64,000 nucleotides of DNA from Pseudomonas phage vB_PaeM_RyC23_M4LORT. The stretch is taken from the sequence record PP781973.1; one strand, written 5' to 3'. The notes under the pieces are model-generated. The model ran no database searches, had not been told where the DNA came from, and was given only the letters and a program-made list of their open reading frames with translations. The position numbers were made by a program, and so were the translations under genes. Shown in pieces: positions 14,306 through 61,940 of the stretch; position 1 is the stretch's first letter, and the number at the start of each line of letters is the position of its first letter.

Positions 14306-15196
14306 TTACTCTTCTTCACCATCGGAACCGTCGGCGCCCTGACCTTCACCGTCGTGCTCCTGGCCTTCATCGGCCTTCTCGTCATCGCCCTGGCCAGCTT
14401 CGTCTTCCTTCGAAGCGATGGCAACCAGATCGACCCAGCCCATGATTTCCAGCTTGCTCAGATAGCTGCGGACAGAGGTGCCATAGAGCAGATGGGCCAC
14501 CTTCTCGCCGAAGGCTTCGATTTCGACCGGCTCACCAACGGTGCAGTGCTCGTTGATGTAAGCAAACACCTTGCCGCGAGTCGAGAAGGCCTGCGGGGTT
14601 CCATGGCCGTCGCCGGTCGGGATGAAGTGAGTGGCGCGGGGGCGACGCGAGCCGTTGGACTTCAGGTCTTCGCGGCGGGCTTCGGCCTTCGCGCGGCGCT
14701 CTTCCTGCTCTTCCTTGCGGCGCTGCTTCTCGGCTTCGCGCTCTGCCTTCTTCTGCTCGGCCAGGCGCTTGCGCTCTTCTTCGCGTGCGGCTTTCTGGGC
14801 TTCCTGCGCGGCCTTCTTCTCTTCGGCCTTCTTGGCGCGCTCGGCTTCCTTCTCGGCCTTCTTCTGCTCGCGCTCGGCTTCCTTCGCCTTCGCCTTCTCG
14901 GCCAGCTCGGCTTCCTTCGCCTTCGCCTTTTCAGCACGCTCGGCTTCCTTGGCGGCGGCCTTTTCCTTCGCCTTCTCGGCGCGCTCGGCTTCCTTCTTCT
15001 CGCGCTCGGCCTGGCGCTTCGCTTCTCGCTCGGCTTTCTTCTGCTCGGCTTCCTTGGCCTTGGCTTCGGCCTTCTCGGCGCGCTCGCGCTCTTTACGTTG
15101 ACGCTCGGCGGCCTTCTCGGCTTTGCGCAGGGCTGCTGCTTGTTCCTTGGTCAGCTCTTCGCCTTGGGCCTGTTCGTTCTGGTCTTTCTGTTCCAT
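14306..15196 (-). CDS. K/E/A-rich low-complexity coiled-coil protein with C-terminal globular domain and acidic tail
   Basis: 296 aa; ~190 aa of (A/E/K) repeats (EKAKAKEAE...); the underlying DNA carries tandem ~33-nt repeats (14880-14950); C-terminal ~90 aa are non-repetitive, then a D/E/G tail. Confidence 0.6.
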   Translation of the reverse strand: MEQKDQNEQAQGEELTKEQAAALRKAEKAAERQRKERERAEKAEAKAKEAEQKKAEREAKRQAEREKKEAERAEKAKEKAAAKEAERAEKAKAKEAELAEKAKAKEAEREQKKAEKEAERAKKAEEKKAAQEAQKAAREEERKRLAEQKKAEREAEKQRRKEEQEERRAKAEARREDLKSNGSRRPRATHFIPTGDGHGTPQAFSTRGKVFAYINEHCTVGEPVEIEAFGEKVAHLLYGTSVRSYLSKLEIMGWVDLVAIASKEDEAGQGDDEKADEGQEHDGEGQGADGSDGEEE

Positions 15197-21146: not shown

Positions 21147-22886
21147 ATGATTATCGACGACGATAACATTCTTGATGATGACGAATCGGGGTCCAGTGAG
21201 TTCGATCTCACACAGATAGAAGATGCTGGAATGGACCCTTTGATGACCGCCGCAAGTAAAGCGGCCGACGATGCGATTGCGAGGAATGAGACTTACCGAG
21301 CGCAAAAGGCAGCAAAGTATGCAGAGGCGTATGCGGAACCAGATTTGAAGAAGCGAGCGCGATTGTTGATGCTCGATCAGGCCTTTGATCTTCCGGTCAG
21401 CCGGCTGGTGAAAGGACCGTTCGACGACTTCATCACCAAGTACAGCTCGACTTCAGACAGCAACTACCTCGCGGTCTATGATACGTTGTTCTGTAAGGGC
21501 GACGGAACTGTCCCACACCCGCACTTCGACGAGTTTCGCGGCCGGCTGGTGGACCACCGAGGCGTGGCGTTCAACAACAAAACCCTCGATCCGATTGACC
21601 TGATGGGCGCCCTCGCGGCTGCGGCCTTGGACGATCCCTCGATTAAGAAGACGATTGAGACTTGCTGCGTTTGGGCGCGTCGATATCGCCGCAACTCGCT
21701 GATCGAGACGTTTGAGAAGAAGATACCGGATTGGGACGGCGAAGAGCGGATCGAAACGCTGCTGATCGACTTGTTCAAACCGTTCGACACCGAGCTTAAC
21801 CGGATGGTGAGCAAGTATTTCTGGCTGAGCTTGTACTGCCGCATCAACTACCCTGGAATCTCGGCGCCGATCTCGTTGGCGTTGATTGGTGGGCAGGATG
21901 CGGGGAAATCATATTTCGGCTTGCTGATCTGTAAGGAACTGTCCGGTGGGCGCGATCTGGCTCCAGTTCAGCTCGACCTGAGCCGACACGACCAGACGCC
22001 GTTCCTGCGCAACATCACCGGCAACTCGGTTATTGCGAACGTCGGCGAAATGTCCGGCTTCAAAAAGGGCGACATGGAACGCATCAAAGAATTCCTGGTG
22101 CGATCTTCGGATACATTCGATCAGAAATTCGAGCCTGGCGAAACGATCAAGCGACAATGGATCACCATCATGGACGGCAACGGATACGATGGACTCCAGC
22201 GGGACGACTCCGGCAACCGTCGATTCTATCCGATGTTCGTGGCACAACTTCCCGACGAAGATGGAAAGCCGAACTGGGTTAAGCCGGGCGATGGTAATGA
22301 ACCGTTCAAGGTGGACTTCACCGACTTCGGTCGCAAATTCTGGCAAGCGATGGCTGAATGCCGCGCATGGATCGAAGAGCATGGTGTCGATGGATACCTG
22401 GATATGGTGTCGGAAGCGAACCGCGAAGTGCAGAAGTTCTCTATTTCGGAAATGGAGAATGCGCGTGGCGTGGTTCGTGATGACACGATTGATATGTATC
22501 TGATCAACGTGCTGATCAGTTGCGAGTTCGAAGAGATCAAGCCTGGCAGGAATTCAAAGAATCCTGGATGGAGAGTCAACACCATCGAAATCCTGAAATG
22601 GTTCGATGTTCTCGCCAGAAAGAAGCCGATTTCTCGCCACTTAACTCCGCACCTGAAGGCTCTGGGATTTGTTCCGAATAAGAATGGCTTGAATGGATGG
22701 TGCCTGCCTGTAGATAAGGTTGCACCTGGATGGACCAGAGATATGCACACGACGTTGCCGCCGTTCAATGATGTGCTTGTATACTTGCTGAGGAAGGTGG
22801 ATTCTGAGGTGACTGATGAAGAGGCAATGATTCAAATCCGCAAAGTTAAGGCCGAGCGCGCAAGGATATTGGGCGAGGATTTCTGA
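21147..22886 (+). CDS. VirE-family / primase C-terminal-like P-loop NTPase (replicative helicase-primase component)
   Basis: 579 aa; P-loop LIGGQDAGKS; acidic N-terminus; layout typical of virulence-associated E (D5/VirE) phage replication proteins. Confidence 0.7.
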   Translation: MIIDDDNILDDDESGSSEFDLTQIEDAGMDPLMTAASKAADDAIARNETYRAQKAAKYAEAYAEPDLKKRARLLMLDQAFDLPVSRLVKGPFDDFITKYSSTSDSNYLAVYDTLFCKGDGTVPHPHFDEFRGRLVDHRGVAFNNKTLDPIDLMGALAAAALDDPSIKKTIETCCVWARRYRRNSLIETFEKKIPDWDGEERIETLLIDLFKPFDTELNRMVSKYFWLSLYCRINYPGISAPISLALIGGQDAGKSYFGLLICKELSGGRDLAPVQLDLSRHDQTPFLRNITGNSVIANVGEMSGFKKGDMERIKEFLVRSSDTFDQKFEPGETIKRQWITIMDGNGYDGLQRDDSGNRRFYPMFVAQLPDEDGKPNWVKPGDGNEPFKVDFTDFGRKFWQAMAECRAWIEEHGVDGYLDMVSEANREVQKFSISEMENARGVVRDDTIDMYLINVLISCEFEEIKPGRNSKNPGWRVNTIEILKWFDVLARKKPISRHLTPHLKALGFVPNKNGLNGWCLPVDKVAPGWTRDMHTTLPPFNDVLVYLLRKVDSEVTDEEAMIQIRKVKAERARILGEDF

Positions 22887-22907
22887 TGTAGTGATGGAGT
22901 GTACTTG

Positions 22908-22942
22908 GACTAGGCCGCCTTCGGGCGGTCTTTTCTTTGGTG
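22908..22942 (+). terminator. rho-independent terminator after the VirE-like gene
   Basis: AGGCCGCC-ttcg-GGCGGTCT followed by TTTTCTTT. Confidence 0.7.
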
Positions 22943-22949
22943 AGGCGTA

Positions 22950-23560
22950 CATTCTATTAGGTTGTGGCCGAGTGAGATTCGGAAGCTATCTGGTAATTAG
23001 GATGGGGTGGCGATGGTGTATTATGGAAAGTTCGTGGACGGTGGATCGAGGATTTTGTGTGGTGAGTGGGTGGATTATGGAAAATCGACGATTCTGACTG
23101 GATTTTTGGGGTCGGCCGCGCCGGTCTTACTGGTAATTACCGAAACCGGGAATTTGGGTCGAGCCTTAGTGCCGCGTGGGCTTGAAGCGCTTATTCGGAT
23201 ACTTCCCGGTTTCGGATGCAGCCGCAAAAGTATACTACAGCGAAAATCGATTGCACAATCCTAATAGAAAAAATCTATCACGGACGTTACCTATCTTTAA
23301 AATTAATAAAATTAATAGTAATTTGGTAATTTGGTAAACTTTAGTATTTGAAAGCCTCGCGGCACTAAGCTTGTACATATCCCGTCAAGTTTCCGATTCC
23401 AGCCAGCTCGCGGCAGGGTCGCCGGAAACTTCCGGACTTCCAATCCATGGGTCGCGGCAACACCACGGCGGACTAAGCGGCAGGCACCAAAACTCGACGA
23501 ACGGAACCGGAAATTTGGGAGCGCGACAGAATCGCTCAGCTGGACATATTTCTAACATTC
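22950..23560. repeat. iteron-like direct and inverted repeat cluster with AT-rich core (candidate origin, pac site or regulatory hub)
   Basis: perfect 13-bp inverted repeat CCGAAACCGGGAA (23140-23152) / TTCCCGGTTTCGG (23204-23216); direct repeats ATTATGGAAA (23021-23030, 23074-23083) and AACCGG(G)AAATTTGGG (23144-23159, 23502-23517); motif TCGCGGCA at 23355, 23407, 23451, 23769, plus an inverse copy at ~23170; AT-rich stretch 23281-23345; palindrome CCGGAAACTTCCGG (23421-23434). Confidence 0.5.
23321..23400 (+). repeat. conserved ~75-nt element, copy A (core AAAGCCTCGCGGCAcTAaGCTT...ATCCCGTCAAGTTTCCGA)
   Basis: ~80% identical to 43163-43240; an inverted partner of the core lies at 23165-23188. 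Confidence 0.7.
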
Positions 23561-23847
23561 TATTTAACACTCAATCCAAACACTCACCACCATCGTCTCC
23601 CGCCAACCGCCGACTCGATCCTCACCCACCAGCGGATCGCCCGTATAACATCCTATAACACCACCTAACACTCATTCATCATCAAACCCACCCAGACCTA
23701 CAGCCCACCCACAAGCAGCCCATAGACGCGATCCCTGGCCCCATAGTACAATCGCGCCATACTCAGTGTCGCGGCAGAGCACCAGGCCCATCCACCACCA
23801 ACGCCACCGCGACGACTCCAGAATCGAACTCAGGGACGCAGCACCAA

Positions 23848-24417
23848 ATGACCAAACACTACAGCCCCGACGATCTAGTCACGCCACAGGAATTCGCAGA
23901 CCCGCATTTCGCGGCGATCAACCAAAAGCGATTCGACCTGTACATCGACCTGCGCGTCCAAGGCTACAGCTCCTGGCGGGTCTTCCGGGCCATCTGGGGT
24001 GAGGAGCACATGGACGGTCCCGCCCAGGCTCGCATCTTCGCGATGGAGTCCAACCCGTACTATCGCAAGCAGTTCAAGGCCAAGTTGAACGCGACCAAAA
24101 CGTCCGACTTGTGGAATCCAAAGACGGCGCTCCACGAACTCCTCCAAATGGTTCGTGACCCCACCGTCAAGGACTCCAGTCGTCTGTCGGCCATCAAGGA
24201 ATTGAACGTTCTGGCTGAAATCACGTTCGTGGACGAGTCTGGCAAGACCAGGATCGGTCGCGGTTTGGCCGACTTCTACGCATCAGAAGCCGAGGCTCAG
24301 ACCGCGACCGTCGCTGCTGCGGCCGAAGCCAATGGCTATGTGCCGGAAGGCGAAGAGGGCGATTTCCCGTCCCCGACGCCGGAACCGACCGAGGAAGACC
24401 GCGCCAACCCCATTTAG
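23848..24417 (+). CDS. putative terminase small subunit (tentative)
   Basis: 189 aa; N-terminal LVTPQEFADPHFAAINQKRFDLYIDLRVQGYSSWRVFRAIWGEE resembles the HTH region of TerS proteins (LTPKQExF...Y...G.N...A...AGYS); acidic C-terminus; sits right after the repeat-rich non-coding region. Confidence 0.35.
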   Translation: MTKHYSPDDLVTPQEFADPHFAAINQKRFDLYIDLRVQGYSSWRVFRAIWGEEHMDGPAQARIFAMESNPYYRKQFKAKLNATKTSDLWNPKTALHELLQMVRDPTVKDSSRLSAIKELNVLAEITFVDESGKTRIGRGLADFYASEAEAQTATVAAAAEANGYVPEGEEGDFPSPTPEPTEEDRANPI

Positions 24418-24537: not shown

Positions 24538-24580
24538 AAAGCCCCGGACTCTAGCTCAGAATCCGGGGCTTTCTTTTGGG
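24538..24580. terminator. bidirectional rho-independent terminator between convergent genes
   Basis: AAAGCCCCGGA...TCCGGGGCTTT with T-run CTTTCTTTTG on plus; usable from both strands. Confidence 0.6.
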
Positions 24581-24584
24581 CGCC

Positions 24585-25199
24585 TTATTCGCCAGCTTCG
24601 ATGATTTCGAAGTTGTATTTGACGCCTTCGTGCTCGAAAGTCATTTTGCCAGCCGCCTTCAGCTGCATGCGGAAGCGGATGTGTTTCGAAGAAGGCAGGC
24701 CGAACTCGATGAATGCTGCGTTGGTGGACCGGAACTCGCCGCGCTTGCCTTTGACAGTCACAGCCACGCCATGGCGCTGAGTGCGTTTCTTGGAAACTTC
24801 CGGGTCTTTCCAGGAGTTGGCGATGGCTGCCGACAGGTCTTTGGACTCTTTGGCTTTCTCCGGAGCGTTCTTGGCCTCTTCGCGCATCTTCCGGATTTCT
24901 TCCAGCGCTTCCTCTTCGGTGATCTCTTCTTCAGGCTTCAGATTCTCTTCCTCGGCCTTCTCTTCTTCCTTCTTCTTGGAAGTGCGGGTTTTGTAGACTT
25001 TGGCCGGGGCTTCCTCTTCCTGGAAGGCTTCTTCCTCGGCCGGCAGAGCATTCAGGATGGCGAGGCAGCGACGCTCAGCAGTCTTGCGGTCAGAGAAACG
25101 CTTGACAGTCGCATCGGCGTTGTGGGCGTTGTAGAAGGCGACCAGTTCTTTCATTTCTGCGTTCTGGATGTCGCCGAAGGTTTTGATGGAGTTGGTCAT
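24585..25199 (-). CDS. hypothetical protein (acidic, K/E-rich middle)
   Basis: 204 aa; SD GAGGA upstream; driven by the promoter at 25263-25290. Confidence 0.6.
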   Translation of the reverse strand: MTNSIKTFGDIQNAEMKELVAFYNAHNADATVKRFSDRKTAERRCLAILNALPAEEEAFQEEEAPAKVYKTRTSKKKEEEKAEEENLKPEEEITEEEALEEIRKMREEAKNAPEKAKESKDLSAAIANSWKDPEVSKKRTQRHGVAVTVKGKRGEFRSTNAAFIEFGLPSSKHIRFRMQLKAAGKMTFEHEGVKYNFEIIEAGE

Positions 25200-31426: not shown

Positions 31427-32872
31427 GTGCTCGACCGTCTGTTGCGGCGTCGATATACTCGACCTATTGCTGACACCGGATTGATTAGAATGTACAAACT
31501 CAACCCTGCACTGCGAGCGGTCTGGCGAACTCGCGCCCGTTACAAAGTCATTTATGGCGGCCGGGCGTCTTCGAAGTCACACGACGCAGGCGGTATCGCC
31601 GTTTACCTCGCGGCCAACTATAGACTCAAGTTCCTCTGTGCTCGCCAGTTTCAGAACCGCATCAGCGAATCGGTCTACACGTTGATCAAGGACAAGATTG
31701 AGAATTCTGAGTACAACGGCGAGTTCATTTTCACGAAGAACTCGATCAAGCACAAGATGACCGGATCAGAATTCCTATTCTATGGGATCGCCCGTAACCT
31801 GTCGGAAATCAAGTCTACCGAAGGCATCGACATTCTCTGGCTTGAGGAAGCTCACTACCTGACCCAGGAGCAGTGGGAAGTCATCGAGCCGACCATCCGG
31901 AAAGAGAACTCAGAAATCTGGATCATCTTCAATCCGAACGAAGTGACAGACTTCGTGTATCAGAACTTCGTGGTGAAGCCACCCAAAGACGCCTTCGTCA
32001 AGATGATCAACTGGAACGAAAATCCGTTTCTCAGTGAGACGATGCTCAAGGTCATCCACGAAGCTTATGAGCGCGACAAGGACCAGGCCGAGCACATTTA
32101 TGGCGGGATTCCGAAGACTGGTGGCGACAAATCCGTCATCAATCTCAAGTTCATTCTTGCGGCCATCGACGCCCACAAGAAACTCGGCTGGGAGCCGGCC
32201 GGATCGAAGCGCATCGGCTTCGACGTTGCGGACGACGGCGAGGATGCGAACGCAACTACGCTCATGCACGGCAACGTCATTATGGAAGTGGACGAATGGG
32301 ACGGCCTGGAAGATGAACTGCTCAAGTCGTCCAGCCGCGTTTACAACCTGGCGAAGATGAAAGGCGCCTCGGTCACTTATGACTCCATCGGTGTCGGCGC
32401 TCACGTCGGATCGAAGTTCGCCGAGTTGAACGATGCCAGTCCCGACTTCAAACTGATCTATGATCCATTCAACGCGGGCGGCGCTGTCGATAAGCCTGAT
32501 GATATCTACATGAAGCTGCCGCACACGACGATCAAGAACAAAGACCACTTCAGCAACATCAAGGCGCAGAAGTGGGAAGAAGTCGCGACCCGATTCCGGA
32601 AGACTTATGAAGCGGTTGAGCATGGAAAGGTTTATCCCTTCGACGAATTGATTTCGATCAACTCTGAAACGATTCACCCGGACAAACTAAATCAACTGTG
32701 TATCGAACTTTCGTCGCCGCGCAAAGACCTGGACATGAACGGCCGGTTCAAAGTCGAGTCCAAGAAGGATATGCGCGAGAAACGCAAGATCAAGTCGCCG
32801 AACATCGCTGACTCGGTGATTATGTCGGCCATTCTGCCGATCCGGAAGCCCAAAGGTTTCTTCGACTTCTAA
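31427..32872 (+). CDS. terL: terminase large subunit
   Basis: 481 aa; Walker A IYGGRASSKSH, Walker B-like ILWLEEAH, C-terminal nuclease domain with acidic residues; Met22 (31490, MYKLNPAL) is an alternative start. Confidence 0.85.
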   Translation: MLDRLLRRRYTRPIADTGLIRMYKLNPALRAVWRTRARYKVIYGGRASSKSHDAGGIAVYLAANYRLKFLCARQFQNRISESVYTLIKDKIENSEYNGEFIFTKNSIKHKMTGSEFLFYGIARNLSEIKSTEGIDILWLEEAHYLTQEQWEVIEPTIRKENSEIWIIFNPNEVTDFVYQNFVVKPPKDAFVKMINWNENPFLSETMLKVIHEAYERDKDQAEHIYGGIPKTGGDKSVINLKFILAAIDAHKKLGWEPAGSKRIGFDVADDGEDANATTLMHGNVIMEVDEWDGLEDELLKSSSRVYNLAKMKGASVTYDSIGVGAHVGSKFAELNDASPDFKLIYDPFNAGGAVDKPDDIYMKLPHTTIKNKDHFSNIKAQKWEEVATRFRKTYEAVEHGKVYPFDELISINSETIHPDKLNQLCIELSSPRKDLDMNGRFKVESKKDMREKRKIKSPNIADSVIMSAILPIRKPKGFFDF

Positions 32873-42754: not shown

Positions 42755-42890
42755 ACCGCAAGACGTGCCGGCGCCGACTCGTGGTCGATGTAATCAGGGC
42801 CAATATTCACGGCGGATTCTTCAGCCTGAAGTTTGCCGCCATCGATTTGGCAATCATCGGCGTCGCCATCTTGATGGCTTTTGGCCGATA
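42751..42890 (+). CDS. small membrane protein
   Basis: 46 aa ([46 protein letters not shown]), ATGA-coupled; under the ORF-track cutoff. Confidence 0.3.
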
Positions 42891-43162
42891 ATGCTGAGAA
42901 AAATCTGGATTCTGACTAAAAATTCTAGTCCGGATAGCCGCAAGTTACCGTTTACGGAAAATAGCAGTAATTTGGAAATCCTACTGCCGCGAGGCTTTAA
43001 CAGAGCCAGTTCCTAATTTCCGATTTAGCCGCATGCTTCAAAAGTATATAGCCTGGGAAATTAGAAGTAACGTTCCAATAGAATTCATCTATAAGTAACG
43101 TTATAATATAACGTCAATCTATATGCTCTAGACGTATTGAAATTCAATTTTTAATCGGTAAA

Positions 43163-43240
43163 TTGGTAATTTGAATTAGTTTAGGAGTTGAAAGCCTCGC
43201 GGCAGTAGGCTTAGACAAATCCCGTCAAGTTTCCGAGACC
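43163..43240 (+). repeat. conserved ~75-nt element, copy B
   Basis: GGTAATTTGaattagtttaggagTTGAAAGCCTCGCGGCAGTAGGCTTagACAaATCCCGTCAAGTTTCCGAgaCC; the 19-nt core AAAGCCTCGCGGCAGTAGG recurs as an exact inverted copy at 42979-42997. Confidence 0.7.
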
Positions 43241-43404
43241 AAATTACCGGATTTTCGCGGCTGAGGAAACTGGTAATTAGATCACAATACAAATTATAAT
43301 GTAAGTTAACAGTCACGGCTACATCTAATTATTGTTCCGCTTATTTACCCTTAGATGTACTGCGTATATAATACAGCCATAGTCCACGACTCTTCGAATT
43401 AACG

Positions 43405-44838
43405 ATGGCAAAGTCGAAAAGAAAAATTGACGAAAATGGATATATGACCATAGAGGGCTGCCCGATCAGCTCTTATGGCGTTTTCCAATATTCTGCTGGT
43501 CAACTCGGTCTTCCGGGCGATCCGACGCGGATTGTCAACGTATATCGCCCGGAGTCTGCCGTCAGCGATCCGGAGTACATCGAATCTCTGAAGAATCTCC
43601 CGTTGATCGACGAGCATGAGATGCTGTCGGGATTCGACGATGATGACGATAGCGTGGCCCCCGAAGACAAAGGGGTGGAGGGCATCATCACATCCAACGC
43701 TTACTACGAAGCCCCATGGGCACGCGGCGATATCCGCATCTATTCCCGCAACATGCAGAATCAGCTGGAAAGGGGCAAAGAAGACCTGTCCCTAGGCTAT
43801 AGTTGCCGCTACACTGAGCAACCCGGCATCTGGAACGGGACGCCTTATGAAGTCGTCCAGGACAAGATGCGCGGCAACCACATCGCCCTGGTAAAAGAGG
43901 GTCGTGTGCCGGGGGCCAGAGTATTGGATGGTCTGTGTTTTGACCATCTCAGTTTTGATTTCAGACCATCCGATGAGGGTAATGAAATGAGTCTCAAGAA
44001 AGCCAAGCGGAAGCCCCCTGTCCAGCGCGTAGGGCAAGCTGCTGACTCGGCGGTCGAAGAGTTGCGCGCCCTGTGGCCGAAGCTATCTGCGTCTGTCCAG
44101 AAGTTCCTGGGCGAAGAAGAGCAGGAGCCGGAGCATCAGGAAGGCGCAGCTCCGGCCGAACCGACCGACAGCGAGCACCTGACCGAGCATCCGACTCTGG
44201 AAGGTGCTCAGAAGGATGACGAAGAGCAGGAAGAGGAGCCTTCCGTTGTCGATCCGGCCGTGGCCGCCGTCGAGCCGGAGCATCAAGAAGGTGCCGCATC
44301 CGAAATGTCCGGTGAAGGCGAAGTCGCCGAACTGATCTCTCAAGTCAAGGCCATTCTGGCTCGACTGGAGGGCACGGTAGCCGAAGGGGCGGACGAAGAG
44401 CATGGCGAAGGTCAAGATGTCGTCGAGGGCTTGGAAGAGCAGAGCAGCCTCAGCGGCGCGCAAACCGCCAGCGACGATGGTGGTGAGGGCAAGGATAACA
44501 GCGAGGAACTTCCTGAAATGGCACAGAAGAACGCGCAAGATGCTGCAATTCGCGGTCTCTATCGCGACATTGCTGCTAAAGATCGCCTCTACAAGCGTCT
44601 TAGCTCCGTGGTTGGTGCGTTCGATCACCGAGCTATGGACTCGGCTGAAGTCGCTGTTTACGGCGTGAAAAAGCTGAACATCAGCTGTGCGAAGGGCCAG
44701 GAAGCTCTGGCGCTCGACATGTACCTGAAAGGCGTCGAAGCCTCGCGCGGCGCGGCCAGCCGTCAATCGAAAGCCCAGGATTCGGCCGGTTCTGCTCCGC
44801 AGTGCGCCGAGCTGGACAGCTACCTGAAGGGGGAGTAA
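43405..44838 (+). CDS. putative scaffolding protein (N-terminal phage-conserved domain, acidic coiled-coil C-terminus)
   Basis: 477 aa; position between MuF and capsid genes; N-terminal ~190 aa globular (GCPISSYGVFQY...), then an E/Q/A-rich tract with repeated EPEHQEGAA. Confidence 0.5.
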   Translation: MAKSKRKIDENGYMTIEGCPISSYGVFQYSAGQLGLPGDPTRIVNVYRPESAVSDPEYIESLKNLPLIDEHEMLSGFDDDDDSVAPEDKGVEGIITSNAYYEAPWARGDIRIYSRNMQNQLERGKEDLSLGYSCRYTEQPGIWNGTPYEVVQDKMRGNHIALVKEGRVPGARVLDGLCFDHLSFDFRPSDEGNEMSLKKAKRKPPVQRVGQAADSAVEELRALWPKLSASVQKFLGEEEQEPEHQEGAAPAEPTDSEHLTEHPTLEGAQKDDEEQEEEPSVVDPAVAAVEPEHQEGAASEMSGEGEVAELISQVKAILARLEGTVAEGADEEHGEGQDVVEGLEEQSSLSGAQTASDDGGEGKDNSEELPEMAQKNAQDAAIRGLYRDIAAKDRLYKRLSSVVGAFDHRAMDSAEVAVYGVKKLNISCAKGQEALALDMYLKGVEASRGAASRQSKAQDSAGSAPQCAELDSYLKGE

Positions 44839-58431: not shown

Positions 58432-59121
<690 letters not shown>

Positions 59122-59175: not shown

Positions 59176-60429
59176 ATGGCTAACTACAACTACATCGTCG
59201 ATACTGGTGTGATAGTCGCAGATACCGCCGACGTTCTGAGCGACGTTGAGGCCGAGTTCCGCGCCGCCCTCGGTGCCAATATCAACTTGGCCGCGAGCAC
59301 TCCGCAGGGATCGCTTGTCGCGGCCGAGGCCATCGCCCGTTCCAGTGTCATGCGGAATGAAGCGCGAATTGCCAATACCATAAACCCGAACGTTTCATTC
59401 GGAACGTTCCTGGACGCGATCTGTGCCTTGATGGGGATCGAGCGCGGTTCTGATCTGTCAACCTTCGGCTATGGAGTTCAAGTCACCGGCCGCAGCCAAA
59501 CCCGCATTTCCACCGGGTCTAGGGTCCAGACTCCGGCCGGCGCGATCTTCACAGTGATGAGCGATGTCACGATCCCTGCTGGTGGTGTCGCGACCATCGA
59601 TATCAAATCGCAGGAGTATGGCAACATTCCTCTGCCGGTCGGGAATCTCATAATCATCGACGGAACAATTGGGTGGTCCGGAGCAAAAGTCATCGCCTCC
59701 ACTCGCGTCGATCCGGGCAGCCGCCAAATGAGCGATGCAGAGTTGAAGAATGCCCGCGTTAATCGATTGGCCATCCAAGGCCGCAACTCGACTATGGCCA
59801 TCAAGGCGTATGTGAGCGCCGTTCCAAACGTCACGTCGGTGAACGTAATCGAGAACAACACCGGCGCCGTTCAAGTGGTGAATGGAGTCTCGTTTACCCT
59901 TCCGTATGCTGTTTGGGTCTGCGTCGCCGGAAACCCGGATAAACAAGCAGTCGCCGATGCGTTGTGGGCCGCCCATAACGGCGGAACTCCATGGGACTAT
60001 GGTGCGACGAACAACGGCGTCCCGGTGGACGGTCCGAACGGCGTTCCTGTGCGCGATCCGGCGTCCGGTCGAAAGTATGTCGTGAAGTGGACCACTCCAA
60101 TCATGTACGATGGATATGTTAACGTAACAGTCCAGCAAGGTTCCTCCTCTGTAGCTCCGGAAGCCATTCAGAACGCAGTGGTCAATTACGCCCAGGGGAA
60201 AGTGGAAGGGGAAGAGGGGCTGGTGGTGGGCGCGAGCCTGTCGGCATTCGAAGTCGCCGGAGCCATCGCTCGCGAAATTCCCGGCATCTACATCAAACTC
60301 TGCCAGGTCGCGTGCGTCGCGGCTGGCTCGCCGGCTCCGGCTCCGGGCGATTTCACTTCGGAATACGTCATGAGCGCATTCGGCCAGGCTACCATTTCCG
60401 TTGGTAACGTTCGGGTGACTTTCGTATGA
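59176..60429 (+). CDS. baseplate J-like protein
   Basis: 417 aa; size and position (after gpV-like, before gpI-like) match the Baseplate_J family. Confidence 0.6.
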   Translation: MANYNYIVDTGVIVADTADVLSDVEAEFRAALGANINLAASTPQGSLVAAEAIARSSVMRNEARIANTINPNVSFGTFLDAICALMGIERGSDLSTFGYGVQVTGRSQTRISTGSRVQTPAGAIFTVMSDVTIPAGGVATIDIKSQEYGNIPLPVGNLIIIDGTIGWSGAKVIASTRVDPGSRQMSDAELKNARVNRLAIQGRNSTMAIKAYVSAVPNVTSVNVIENNTGAVQVVNGVSFTLPYAVWVCVAGNPDKQAVADALWAAHNGGTPWDYGATNNGVPVDGPNGVPVRDPASGRKYVVKWTTPIMYDGYVNVTVQQGSSSVAPEAIQNAVVNYAQGKVEGEEGLVVGASLSAFEVAGAIAREIPGIYIKLCQVACVAAGSPAPAPGDFTSEYVMSAFGQATISVGNVRVTFV

Positions 60430-61940
60430 CTCTGCCTGCGTACAATTCGGACATCCAACAAGCTCTGAAATGGCTCCATAACCAGGCGCCTGGAATCACC
60501 GGCCTGATCCAGAGAAAGGCGCAATGGTATGACAGATTCAGCCGCCAATTCTGGGCCAACTGGGAGCGCGACGTTTTCCACTTGAAAACTGCCAACCCGT
60601 TCGGCCTTATGGTTTGGTGCATCATCCTCGGCACGCCTTCGAAAGGGTTCGGCCTTTATCCAAAAAACAGTTCTTGGGCATTCGGTCGGCTACGCCAGAA
60701 CTTCATCTATAGCGGTACACAAGTTCCGCCACCGGCAGACGCATCGCCTGGCGGCAACTTCTACGGTGGCGGCAATGCCGAAATTCTCAACTTGGACGAA
60801 ATCAGGAAAGTGCTTCAGCTAAGATATGTAGCGCTGATTTCTAACGGCTCGATTGCATATGTCAATCGCATGCTTCGTTACATATTCAATGATGATGAGC
60901 CATGGGACGAGGCGACCGGTCTGTACTTCTATCTCATGGACTCAACCGGCGAGAATGGCCCTGTGGAGAACTTGGCGATATATCGGAAAGATTGGGAAGG
61001 TATGGTGCTGTTGTCCAGTTCGCCCAGAACGAACCATGTGCTGACATCGACCCCTGCCAGCGACGCCGATTGGCCGGGAGTCGATCCGGCCGCGAGCGGT
61101 ATTCCGGTAACGGTCGAAACGGCGTCCGCTACGGCCCCGGACGGCTCCGCTACGGTGTGCAAGCTTACTAAGCCGGCCGGGAGTACTGCTTACGTCTCCG
61201 CGCCGATAGATGGGCCGCTGGGGTCCGGTAGCACTGTAACGTTCTCGTTCTTCGCGAAAGCCGGCTCCACCCGTTTCATTGCAATTCAGTCGGCTGCCGA
61301 TTTCCCCAGTCGAGCCGATGCCGTTTTCGACCTGGATTCCGGGAACGTGATCAGCGATCAGATGTTGGACAGCAGCGTGGTAAGCGCCCGAATGATTCGT
61401 CTGGAAAATGGCTGGTGGCGTTGCGTTCTCACGACCAAGACCGTCAGCTCTTCGTTCCGCGCTGCTTACGTCGCTCCGGCAGAAACCAACTTCAGCTGGA
61501 TTGATTCGAATTCCAGCGCGGCGATTGACGTGCTTATATGGGGCGCTCAGATCGAACTGGGTGATACTCCAACTGGATACTTGGAGACTACCGGGGCGCC
61601 CGTAACCATCACCGATTATGTTTTGCAGAACGCCCAGACCGGAACAGTCAAGTTCACACAGCCCCTTCCGACCGGAGTAGAAGCGTATTGGACTGGAGAC
61701 TGGAAAGGCGGGTCTGCGACCGAGCCGGCCAGATTCGCAGTAGGGGATGGGACTCAAGATGCATTCAATTTGTCCAGCCCTGCATACATCGGCCTACCCA
61801 CTAGTGGGGCGTTCAAGCTAGAATACAGAGTTGGTCCGGCGCTTAATTTGTCGCCGCAATTGATCAACCTCATGAATGACCGGGCGGTCGGTATCATGCC
61901 GACTTGCGCCGGTTGCGATGTAAAAGTCATTCAGGAGTAA
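60426..61940 (+). CDS. baseplate wedge / tail-fibre base protein (P2 gpI-like)
   Basis: 504 aa; ATGA-coupled to the J gene; gpI-like position; C-terminal Cys cluster CAGCDVKV. Confidence 0.5.
   Translation: MTLPAYNSDIQQALKWLHNQAPGITGLIQRKAQWYDRFSRQFWANWERDVFHLKTANPFGLMVWCIILGTPSKGFGLYPKNSSWAFGRLRQNFIYSGTQVPPPADASPGGNFYGGGNAEILNLDEIRKVLQLRYVALISNGSIAYVNRMLRYIFNDDEPWDEATGLYFYLMDSTGENGPVENLAIYRKDWEGMVLLSSSPRTNHVLTSTPASDADWPGVDPAASGIPVTVETASATAPDGSATVCKLTKPAGSTAYVSAPIDGPLGSGSTVTFSFFAKAGSTRFIAIQSAADFPSRADAVFDLDSGNVISDQMLDSSVVSARMIRLENGWWRCVLTTKTVSSSFRAAYVAPAETNFSWIDSNSSAAIDVLIWGAQIELGDTPTGYLETTGAPVTITDYVLQNAQTGTVKFTQPLPTGVEAYWTGDWKGGSATEPARFAVGDGTQDAFNLSSPAYIGLPTSGAFKLEYRVGPALNLSPQLINLMNDRAVGIMPTCAGCDVKVIQE

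What the first reader, a model, noticed from the sequence alone, without database searches (positions are those of the whole stretch)
22950..23560. Iteron-like repeats, perfect 13-bp inverted repeat and AT-rich core: candidate replication origin or pac site
The ~960-bp non-coding gap after the primase/VirE genes holds multiple repeat families. These are ATTATGGAAA (x2), AACCGG(G)AAATTTGGG (x2), TCGCGGCA (4 direct copies plus 1 inverted), TGGTAATTA (x2), a perfect 13-bp inverted repeat CCGAAACCGGGAA/TTCCCGGTTTCGG around a 51-nt spacer, the palindrome CCGGAAACTTCCGG, and a ~65-bp AT-rich stretch (23281-23345). Iterons next to an AT-rich DNA-unwinding element beside replication initiator genes is the classic phage/plasmid origin layout. 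The position just upstream of a putative terS also fits a pac site.
Basis: seen in the sequence. Interest (0 to 1): 0.6.

Follow-up and report, generated by a model that had tools for sequence, protein, structure and literature searches.

The report
Phage DNA-packaging start site and terS promoters
This non-coding stretch of a PB1-like Pseudomonas phage is where DNA packaging into capsids most likely starts, with the promoters of the small-terminase gene next to it. Studies of near-identical phages have already pointed to the same spot, so it is real and functional but largely known.

Summary
The window is a Pbunavirus (PB1-like) genome. The repeats, the 13-bp inverted repeat and the AT-rich stretch are all real. 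The AT-rich stretch is the lowest-GC spot of the 64 kb.

The gap lies between a VapE-like primase/helicase gene and terS, which matches the solved E217 small terminase (PDB 7UXE).

Two independent published data sets put a fixed virion DNA end at one nucleotide, window 23248. These are the fixed-end reads that define the start of the Ab27 record, and the 36 of 161 long nanopore reads of JG024 that start at 59,376. The Pa193 and TH15 records start there too. The end lies in the palindrome AATCGATT, at the edge of a 98.6%-conserved core.

The AT-rich "unwinding element" is a sigma-70 promoter mapped in phage 14-1 (P040, start ~23352). A second promoter (P041, start ~23760) follows. Both transcripts cover terS.

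The left half, which holds most of the "iteron-like" repeats, is the least conserved part.

In the distantly related Wifcevirus phages the genome end also lies in an AT-rich core between inverted motifs just upstream of terS.

Verdict: pac region plus terS promoters. The origin reading is unsupported but not excluded.

One new observation: a second, paralogous ~380-bp module lies 20 kb away, upstream of the head genes. Relatives keep the same layout there.

The parts
21147..22886 (+). VapE-like primase/helicase gene, the left neighbour of the gap
   Evidence: Pfam PF05272 VapE-like domain, E 1.4e-22. Annotated 'putative primase' in SN and JG024.
22912..22939 (+). Intrinsic terminator ending the replication-gene operon
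   Evidence: Stem-loop plus T-run found by the scan. Invariant in relatives. The same sequence is listed as a terminator in JG024 Table 3 (PMC3008698).
22948..23225 (.). Variable, G-rich left half. Holds ATTATGGAAA x2, CTGGTAATTA x2 and the 13-bp inverted repeat.
   Evidence: Lowest conservation of the locus: 63-80% mean pairwise identity. Two sequence types occur in the genus. GC skew +0.6 to +0.8.
23140..23215 (.). Perfect 13-bp inverted repeat CCGAAACCGGGAA / TTCCCGGTTTCGG. It encloses the TGCCGCG motif.
   Evidence: Folds at -40 kcal/mol with z -4.3. Only the core CYGGGAA/TTCCCGG is kept across the genus.
23165..23186 (.). Left arm of the long-range inverted repeat (CTTAGTGCCGCGTGGGCTTGAA)
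   Evidence: Inverted repeat I1, 82% complementary to 23348-23369. In most Pbunaviruses only the core TGCCGCG / CGCGGCA is complementary.
23226..23335 (.). Ultra-conserved core that holds the packaging cut and the AT-rich promoter
   Evidence: Columns 23237-23336 are 95 of 100 invariant in 9 sequences. 98.6% mean pairwise identity at 23248-23297.
23245..23252 (.). Palindrome AATCGATT. The fixed virion DNA end lies at 23247^23248 within it.
   Evidence: The Ab27, TH15 and Pa193 records start at 23248 and PA8P1 at 23250. JG024 position 59,376, where 36/161 long reads start (PMC10913387), is the same nucleotide. Essoh 2015 describes fixed-end reads (PMC4482731).
23281..23351 (+). AT-rich stretch, which is the sigma-70 promoter P040 (transcription start ~23352)
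   Evidence: 14-1 P040: start at 59399(+), class sigma70. Its 50-nt upstream sequence equals window 23302-23351 with 1 mismatch. DP1 annotates a promoter here.
23348..23369 (.). Right arm of the long-range inverted repeat (TTGAAAGCCTCGCGGCACTAAG). It forms the first bases of the P040 transcript.
   Evidence: Nearly invariant in relatives.
23352..23847 (+). About 500-nt leader of the distal terS transcript. Holds TCGCGGCA copies and the AAGTTTCCG/CGGAAACTT inverted repeat, then a C-rich, G-poor tract.
   Evidence: 14-1 transcription unit TU045 runs 59399 to 60626 and covers gp76. 87-98% conserved. No significant RNA fold (z -0.4). No Rfam match.
23723..23752 (+). Proximal terS promoter P041 (TAGACG-18-TACAAT; transcription start ~23760)
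   Evidence: Consensus scan. 14-1 P041 start at 59807(+), with an upstream 50-mer identical to window 23710-23759. Transcription unit TU046.
23848..24417 (+). terS, the small terminase gene
   Evidence: 189 aa. E 6.7e-125 over the full length to PDB 7UXE 'Small terminase' of phage E217. phrog_4783.
24538..24572 (.). Bidirectional terminator after terS
   Evidence: Annotated in 14-1.
42890..43280 (.). Second, paralogous copy of the module, upstream of the scaffold/protease and capsid genes. No cut or equivalent transcription start is known there.
   Evidence: blastn 23318-23396 against 43158-43236, 83.5%. Wider shared layout. Perfect 19-nt inverted repeat 42980-42998 / 43191-43209 around the second-lowest-GC spot of the window. 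Present in all 298 Pbunavirus records.

Best explanation
The gap is the packaging-initiation (pac) region of a headful-packaging Pbunavirus, fused with the promoter/leader region of the small-terminase gene.

Shown:
- In near-identical phages, a fraction of virion DNA molecules begin at one nucleotide. This is window 23248, in the palindrome AATCGATT, at the left edge of the 98.6%-conserved stretch 23248-23297 and inside the ultra-conserved core 23226-23335.
- The genomes are otherwise circularly permuted.
- The AT-rich stretch just to the right is a sigma-70 promoter (P040, start ~23352). Its transcript runs through a ~500-nt leader into terS.
- A second promoter (P041, start ~23760) sits 88 nt before terS.

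Inferred:
- Terminase makes the first cut of a packaging series at 23247^23248 and packages rightwards, towards terS, for about 105% of a genome length.
- The inverted motifs on either side (TGCCGCG at 23171 and CGCGGCA at 23358; CYGGGAA / TTCCCGG) and the easily bent AT-rich DNA between them are the recognition and bending elements for TerS. This would resemble the way repeated motifs flank the central cut in phage P1 pac (from memory).
- The variable G-rich left part, which holds most of the short two-copy repeats, is probably not essential.
For: - The window is a Pbunavirus: 298 phage records match the gap.
- The downstream gene is the solved E217 small terminase.
- Ab27 record position 1 is window 23248. 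[quoted passage not shown]
- In JG024, 36/161 nanopore reads longer than 30 kb start at 59,376 +/-5, and coverage dips at 50-60 kb. The authors proposed this as pac (PMC10913387). Position 59,376 is the same C of CGATTGC.
- The Pa193 and TH15 records start at the same base, and PA8P1 starts 2 nt later.
- For SCUT-S1, PhageTerm placed a pac site in 'an AT-rich region' (PMC6521218).
- Conservation jumps from 63-80% to 98.6% exactly at the cut.
- P040, P041 and their transcription units are mapped in 14-1.
- In Wifcevirus (TerS 40% identical), the WFC and Mansfield records both start at the same base. It lies in an AT core (12% GC) between inverted TACGGATGATACG motifs, 348-360 nt upstream of terS. 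Their terminal repeats of about 3.7 kb have right boundaries that differ (PMC6563267).
- That Wifcevirus module is not next to a primase gene.
Against: - No read data exist for this particular phage.
- The published ends were called 'tentative' or 'could be' by their authors.
- Some records may simply have been re-oriented to copy Ab27.
- PhageTerm found no significant peak for phage Banzai (PMC12390725).
- E217 TerS showed no appreciable DNA binding in vitro (review PMC9611059), so recognition of these motifs by TerS is unproven.
- A paralogous module 20 kb away carries the same motifs but has no known cut. The motifs alone therefore do not specify cutting and may serve another protein.
Confidence: 0.75

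Rival explanations
1. Replication origin, alone or overlapping pac. The inverted motif clusters would bind a phage initiator, the AT-rich core would melt, and the P040 transcript might activate or prime replication. The paralogous module at 42.9-43.3 kb would be a second origin or a cis-acting partner, as with SPP1 oriL/oriR or P4 ori/crr (both recalled from memory).
For: - The two lowest-GC spots of the genome are the cores of the two modules.
- Each core is flanked by inverted copies of motifs that are almost confined to the two modules.
- In Wifcevirus the motifs are tandem 9-mers (TACGGATGA x2-3) inverted around a core of 5-8% GC. Six of seven copies in 20.8 kb lie in the two modules. That looks iteron-like.
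- In Pbunavirus the gap follows the primase genes.
- The SCUT-S1 authors made the same guess.
Against: - In this window the repeats are short, mostly two-copy, irregularly spaced and poorly conserved in the left half.
- The AT stretch is a mapped promoter.
- No DnaA or IHF consensus is present.
- The cumulative GC-skew minima lie at about 7.5 and 17 kb of the window, not here (PMC12390725). The local skew switch has the wrong sign for an origin.
- In Wifcevirus the module follows small unknown ORFs rather than a primase.
- No replication data exist.
Confidence: 0.12
2. A purely transcriptional control region. The gap would hold two promoters, operator-like inverted repeats that loop out P040, and a long regulatory leader for terS. 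The read starts at 23248 would be a library or assembly artefact at AT-rich DNA.
For: - P040 and P041 and their transcripts are mapped.
- The inverted arms lie to the left of the promoter and at its transcription start.
- The leader is C-rich and G-poor for about 300 nt, which resembles a Rho-loading tract.
- The paralogous module also precedes a late operon, with promoter P014 just downstream.
Against: - The same end nucleotide was obtained with different chemistries (short reads in 2015, nanopore reads longer than 30 kb in 2024) and in different phages.
- A homologous position is the genome end in Wifcevirus.
- About 110 bp of near-invariance is more than a promoter needs.
- No transcription start was detected at the paralogous position in gap 2.
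- The leader has no significant fold.
Confidence: 0.1
3. A decayed mobile element or recombination scar, with no function of its own. The inverted arms around an AT-rich core would be a MITE-like remnant, duplicated to two places.
For: Inverted arms of 19-22 nt flank AT-rich spacers of about 160-190 nt in two copies per genome. The left half exists in two mosaic types.
Against: - Both copies sit at fixed syntenic positions in all 298 Pbunavirus records.
- Distant genera keep the same layout with different motifs.
- There are no other copies and no target-site duplications.
- The core is more conserved than the flanking genes.
Confidence: 0.03

Closest known systems
The putative pac site of PB1-like phages already reported for Ab27/28/29 (Essoh 2015), SCUT-S1 (Guo 2019) and JG024 position 59,376 (Ipoutcha 2024)
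   Same: It is the same locus and the same nucleotide in phages whose gap matches this window's in the phage collection (Ab27 98.7% over the part it holds).
   Different: Those papers give only a coordinate or the phrase 'AT-rich region'. None describes the palindrome at the cut, the conservation step, the flanking inverted motifs, the overlap with promoter P040, or the second paralogous module.
Phage P1 pac site (from memory: clusters of hexamer repeats on both sides of a central cleavage region, with an IHF bend between them)
   Same: A fixed cut lies between two sets of short repeated motifs, with bendable AT-rich DNA between them. Packaging is by headful.
   Different: The motifs are unrelated. 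No IHF consensus was found. Nothing here points to methylation control. Binding by the terminase is untested. P1 pac lies inside the terminase gene pacA, whereas this site is about 600 nt upstream of terS.
Phage SPP1 pac (from memory: pacL-pacC-pacR, overlapping the promoter region and the start of the small-terminase gene)
   Same: The pac region lies directly upstream of terS, is interleaved with its promoters, and packaging reads into terS.
   Different: There is no sequence similarity. terS lies far from terL here (review PMC9611059). TerS footprints are unknown.
Iteron-type origins and two-site systems (lambda ori; SPP1 oriL/oriR; P4 ori/crr; all from memory)
   Same: Short repeated motifs sit next to an AT-rich core. 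There are two paralogous copies per genome. In Pbunavirus one copy is adjacent to a primase/helicase gene.
   Different: There is no regular array of 17-22-bp direct repeats in this window. The AT core is a mapped promoter. GC skew gives no support and there are no replication data. In Wifcevirus the link to the primase gene is lost.
Wifcevirus genome ends (WFC, Mansfield: terminal repeat of about 3.7 kb)
   Same: The module is homologous in position and layout: inverted motifs around an AT core, 350 nt upstream of a homologous terS. The genome end lies inside the core.
   Different: The motif sequence differs (TACGGATGA). The ends are reported as direct terminal repeats rather than pac. The cut lies in the AT core itself rather than about 35 nt to its left.

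Membership tests
pac site of a headful-packaging phage | A fraction of virion DNA molecules start at one fixed position on one strand | tested here: met
   Published coordinates were mapped onto the window. Ab27 record start and JG024 59,376 are both window 23248. Pa193 and TH15 start at the same base. The data come from close relatives, not from this phage.
pac site of a headful-packaging phage | The genome is otherwise circularly permuted and terminally redundant, with no second fixed end and no cohesive ends | not testable with these tools
   Literature only. JG024 is circularly permuted by PCR, restriction digestion and long reads. Banzai gave a PhageTerm headful result. PhiR26 is terminally redundant. 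An older report of defined ends conflicts with this.
pac site of a headful-packaging phage | Located in or next to the small-terminase gene | tested here: met
   The cut lies 600 nt upstream of terS (23848-24417), which is identified by PDB 7UXE. The same arrangement is seen in Wifcevirus.
pac site of a headful-packaging phage | Specific binding by TerS, and necessity and sufficiency of the site for packaging | not testable with these tools
   E217 TerS showed no appreciable DNA binding in vitro according to review PMC9611059. No test with this DNA is known.
Iteron-type replication origin | An array of three or more direct repeats of about 17-22 bp at regular, helically phased spacing | tested here: not met
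   Direct-repeat families are two-copy, 9-30 nt long, and spaced 33-606 nt apart. TCGCGGCA copies are spaced 51, 44 and 317 nt. No tandem array lies in the gap.
Iteron-type replication origin | AT-rich unwinding element next to the repeats | tested here: inconclusive
   The stretch is the lowest-GC spot of the window, but the same bases are promoter P040, mapped in 14-1.
Iteron-type replication origin | Conservation of the repeats in relatives | tested here: inconclusive
   Repeats in the left half are poorly conserved (63-80% identity). The right-hand motifs are conserved.
Iteron-type replication origin | Host-factor boxes (DnaA, IHF) or a strand-composition switch at the site | tested here: not met
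   No DnaA or IHF consensus is present. The cumulative GC-skew minima lie elsewhere (PMC12390725).
Iteron-type replication origin | Replication starts here, or the fragment supports replication | not testable with these tools
   No data were found in the literature searched.
sigma-70 promoter | Mapped primary transcription start with upstream -10/-35 elements | tested here: met
   Primary transcription starts were mapped in 14-1 by long-read sequencing of capped transcripts. P040 and P041 are both classed sigma70. Their upstream 50-mers match the window at 49/50 and 50/50. P041 is also found by the consensus scan. The hexamers of P040 are non-canonical.
cos site | Two fixed ends with complementary single-stranded overhangs | not testable with these tools
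   The literature argues against it: no coverage drop or paired peaks were seen, and only a single fixed termination was found.
Structured non-coding RNA | A match to a known family, or a conserved and unusually stable fold | tested here: not met
   Rfam gave no match at the gathering score or at E<=1. The leader folds with z -0.4 and its paralogue with z -1.5.

The most novel reading that the evidence does not exclude
The pac region is one of two paralogous ~380-bp modules per genome. One lies upstream of terS and the other upstream of the head-assembly operon. Each is built as inverted clusters of a short motif around the genome's most AT-rich DNA.

The layout is kept in Pbunavirus, Wifcevirus and other relatives. 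The motif differs between lineages but is shared by both copies within a genome. This would imply that one co-evolving DNA-binding protein acts at both sites. Two examples of what that could mean:
- TerS couples packaging initiation to head-gene expression, or brings the two sites together.
- The modules are a pair of origins, with the packaging cut embedded in one of them.
Probability: 0.3. Interest if true: 0.6.

Novelty: already known. Interest (0 to 1): 0.33.

Why it matters
Pbunaviruses are among the Pseudomonas phages most used in therapy and are now being rebuilt synthetically. Knowing the packaging start site and its direction matters in three ways. It predicts which host or plasmid DNA could be transduced. 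It shows where genomes can safely be cut, re-oriented or engineered. It also helps with reading sequencing-based end analyses, which have given conflicting results for this genus.

Showing that separate reports converge on one nucleotide, and that a distant genus uses the homologous spot, makes a tentative annotation firmer. The duplicated module offers a concrete target for finding what the E217-type small terminase, or another protein, recognises.

Tried and rejected
- RNA element: Rfam gave nothing at the gathering score or at E<=1. The P040 leader and its paralogue do not fold better than shuffles. Rejected.
- Protein-coding gap: KPP12, JG024, BL7 and P1420 annotate ORFs here. The ORF carries a TAA in this window, its product is low-complexity, and relatives have frameshifting indels. 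Rejected.
- Long-range inverted repeat as a conserved stem: there are compensatory differences between the two paralogues, and one G:C to A:T change within gap 2. However, most Pbunaviruses carry a gap-2-like left arm in gap 1 that mismatches the right arm. It is more likely two inverted binding motifs than a conserved helix.
- GC skew as evidence for an origin: the minima follow switches in gene orientation. Uninformative.
- A scan of viral contigs with a 14-mer gave only chance hits. A search with the VapE protein found only close relatives. As a result, gap 1 of the L036/L059 lineages was not recovered.
- Not held in the paper library: Lokareddy 2022 (E217 terminase) and, under the PubMed id tried, what I took to be Ceyssens 2009 (that id, 19783625, differs from the 19678828 later seen in JG024's reference list). 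The supplements of the journal version of Putzeys 2024 were also not held, so the bioRxiv supplement was used instead.

Full report
**What the window is.** The 961-nt gap (22887-23847) matches 298 phage records, nearly all Pseudomonas Pbunavirus (PB1-like myoviruses). The best match is vB_PaeM_P1420 at 99.9%. The window is a rotated copy of about 64 of about 66 kb of such a genome.

**Neighbours of the gap.** The gene to the left (21147-22886) carries a VapE-like primase/helicase domain. It ends at an invariant intrinsic terminator at 22912-22939 (JG024 Table 3). The gene to the right (23848-24417) is the small terminase. It matches over its full 189 residues the solved E217 'Small terminase', PDB 7UXE, with E 6.7e-125. 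In this genus terS lies far from terL; terL is here taken to be 31427-32872, from its position relative to 14-1 and its 44-99% identical relatives, not from a domain search.

**The observation.** Every listed element exists, with small corrections.
- The inverted 'TCGCGGCA' is a 7/8 match.
- The fourth direct copy (23769) lies outside the stated interval.
- The spacer of the inverted repeat is 50 nt.
- CCGGAAACTTCCGG starts at 23422 and is an imperfect palindrome.

The features are not chance.
- The AT-rich stretch is the lowest-GC 65-nt window of the whole 64 kb (16.9%).
- The 13-bp inverted repeat is the longest perfect short-range one in the window.
- TCGCGGCA occurs 14 times against 5.2 expected. 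Six copies lie in just two intergenic gaps.
- CTGGTAATTA has three exact copies, all in those two gaps.

The gap is non-coding. The ORFs some records annotate across it are broken by a TAA in this window (TGGTAAACT against TGGTATACT). Relatives also carry single-base indels in the gap, and the predicted protein is low-complexity. No Rfam family matches.

**Conservation splits the gap in two.** I aligned nine to fifteen Pbunavirus sequences.
- The left part (22948-23247) holds ATTATGGAAA, both CTGGTAATTA copies and the 13-bp inverted repeat. It is the least conserved stretch of the locus, at 63-80% mean pairwise identity, and it exists in two sequence types.
- Conservation then jumps to 98.6% at 23248-23297.
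- It stays at coding-like levels (87-98%) all the way to terS.

**The packaging cut.**
- Essoh et al. [quoted passage not shown] They set base 1 of their records accordingly. Ab27 base 1 is window 23248.
- Ipoutcha et al. 2024 (PMC10913387) found that 36 of 161 nanopore reads longer than 30 kb from JG024 start at 59,376 +/-5, with a coverage dip at 50-60 kb. They proposed this as the pac site of a circularly permuted genome. JG024 59,376 is the same C of CGATTGC.
- The Pa193 and TH15 records start at the same base, and PA8P1 starts two bases later.

The end falls inside the 8-bp palindrome AATCGATT (23245-23252), exactly where conservation rises. I infer that packaging runs rightwards, into terS. 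Three things point that way: the record orientation, the coverage dip just upstream of the site, and the direction of the Wifcevirus terminal repeat.

**The promoters.** Long-read sequencing of capped primary transcripts of phage 14-1 (Putzeys et al. 2024; bioRxiv supplement) maps two promoters.
- P040 (start 59399, + strand, class sigma70) has a 50-nt upstream sequence equal to window 23302-23351 with one mismatch. The AT-rich 'unwinding element' is thus an active promoter, with its start at about 23352.
- P041 (start 59807) corresponds to window 23710-23759, giving a start at about 23760. The consensus scan also finds it, as TAGACG-18-TACAAT.

Both transcription units cover gp76, which is terS. 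The P040 leader is about 500 nt long and C-rich and G-poor in its second half. It shows no significant fold.

**A second copy.** A 79-nt core (23318-23396) recurs at 43158-43236 with 83.5% identity. The similarity extends over about 380 bp, in this order:
- GAAAATC..GATTCTGACT
- an arm containing TGCCGCG
- AAAAGTATA
- an AT-rich core
- GGTAATTTGGTAA
- TTGAAAGCCTCGCGGCA
- ATCCCGTCAAGTTTCCGA
- TCGCGGC
- CTGGTAATTA

This second module lies between the portal/MuF genes and the scaffold-protease, cement and capsid genes. It holds the second-lowest-GC spot of the window and a perfect 19-nt inverted repeat. It is present in all 298 records. No record in the sample starts there, and 14-1 shows no transcription start at the paralogous position. 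The only start nearby is P014, further downstream.

**Distant relatives.** Using TerL, TerS and the scaffold protein as anchors, I recovered relatives with 64-75% TerL identity.

Wifcevirus phages of E. coli (WFC, Mansfield and others) encode a TerS homologue that is 40% identical (same PHROG family). A ~570-nt non-coding region precedes it. In that region, inverted TACGGATGATACG motifs flank a core of 12% GC. Two facts tie this region to packaging.
- The WFC record carries an exact 3,784-bp terminal repeat. The Mansfield record annotates a 'direct terminal repeat predicted by PhageTerm'. Both start at the same base inside that core, 348-360 nt upstream of terS. Their right repeat boundaries differ (Korf 2019).
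- The genes upstream of this module are small ORFs of unknown function, not a primase.

The module therefore stays with terS rather than with replication genes.

Wifcevirus also has a second module upstream of its scaffold gene. It carries the same lineage-specific 9-mer in tandem, inverted around a core of 5-8% GC. Six of seven copies of the 9-mer in 20.8 kb lie in the two modules. Other lineages show the same layout upstream of the scaffold gene with yet other motifs, for example L059 with CTACTTTCC and L036 with 32-nt arms.

**Interpretation.** The best-supported reading is a pac region interleaved with the terS promoters. What is shown is the position of the fixed end in several relatives, the promoters and the identity of terS. 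What is inferred is that the flanking inverted motifs and the bendable AT-rich DNA are what the terminase recognises.

The origin reading lacks positive evidence in this window. The repeats are not iteron-like, the AT core is a promoter, there are no DnaA or IHF boxes, and the GC-skew minima lie elsewhere. It cannot be excluded, however. The two-module layout, and the tandem 9-mers of Wifcevirus, are what one would expect of paired origins. No replication data exist.

The long-range inverted repeat is probably a pair of binding motifs rather than a conserved helix. Most Pbunaviruses keep only a 7-9-bp complementary core, despite a few compensatory-looking changes.

**Novelty.** Others have already proposed the location of pac in PB1-like phages and mapped promoter P040, so the finding itself is known. 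Three points come from this analysis and were not found in the papers searched:
- the separate reports converge on one nucleotide, in a palindrome, at a step in conservation;
- a distant genus uses the homologous spot;
- a second paralogous module is conserved across the family.

These points justify modest interest.

Noticed in passing
window 42890-43280: A second, paralogous copy of the ~380-bp module lies upstream of the scaffold/protease gene (43405-44838). It has a perfect 19-nt inverted repeat (42980-42998 / 43191-43209), the second-lowest-GC spot of the window and a 28-nt tandem repeat (43065-43123). It is present in all 298 Pbunavirus records. Its function is unknown. The record of phage 'goonie' annotates its left arm as a repeat_region.
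   Followed up: partly
L107 2928-3500; L047 15900-16352 (Wifcevirus WFC); L059 20328-20570; L036 17059-17190; L041 7831-8051: Relatives with 64-75% TerL identity keep the same layout: inverted lineage-specific motif arrays around a very AT-rich core. It is seen upstream of the scaffold gene and, in Wifcevirus, also upstream of terS. Within Wifcevirus both copies share the 9-mer TACGGATGA.
   Followed up: partly
L108 / L239 position 1 (WFC MK373777, Mansfield MK903282): Two Wifcevirus records start at the same base inside the AT core upstream of terS. Their terminal repeats of about 3.7 kb end at different places. That looks more like a precise pac cut followed by headful packaging than like true fixed terminal repeats.
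   Followed up: partly
window 22960-23110 and 23530-23830: The GC skew is strong and mirrored: the top strand is G-rich on the left (+0.6 to +0.8) and C-rich on the right (-0.5 to -0.86). The P040 leader is therefore C-rich and G-poor for about 300 nt, which resembles a Rho-loading tract. Unexplained.
   Followed up: no
window 23245-23252: The fixed end lies in the palindrome AATCGATT. Records start at 23248 (Ab27, TH15, Pa193) or 23250 (PA8P1), which could reflect a 2-nt staggered cut.
   Followed up: no
L240 (phiMoody KT254131) about 58,950-59,100: A 146-nt duplication containing N's sits right after ...ATCTATCACGGA and repeats the region around the cut. It is probably an assembly artefact at the genome end.
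   Followed up: no
window 14826-15055: Tandem repeats of 33, 21 and 15 nt (up to 4.2 copies) lie inside a minus-strand ORF (14306-15196), in a region of strong AT skew. This suggests a repetitive protein segment.
   Followed up: no
window 24538-24572: A 16-bp-stem bidirectional terminator lies between terS and the convergent gene 24585-25199. It is annotated in 14-1 as two rho-independent terminators.
   Followed up: no
window 23007-23264 and equivalents (JG024 ORF78, KPP12 ORF74, BL7, vB_Pae_10; phrog_18478): Many GenBank records annotate hypothetical proteins across this non-coding pac/promoter region. These are probably spurious gene calls that have spread into a PHROG family.
   Followed up: partly
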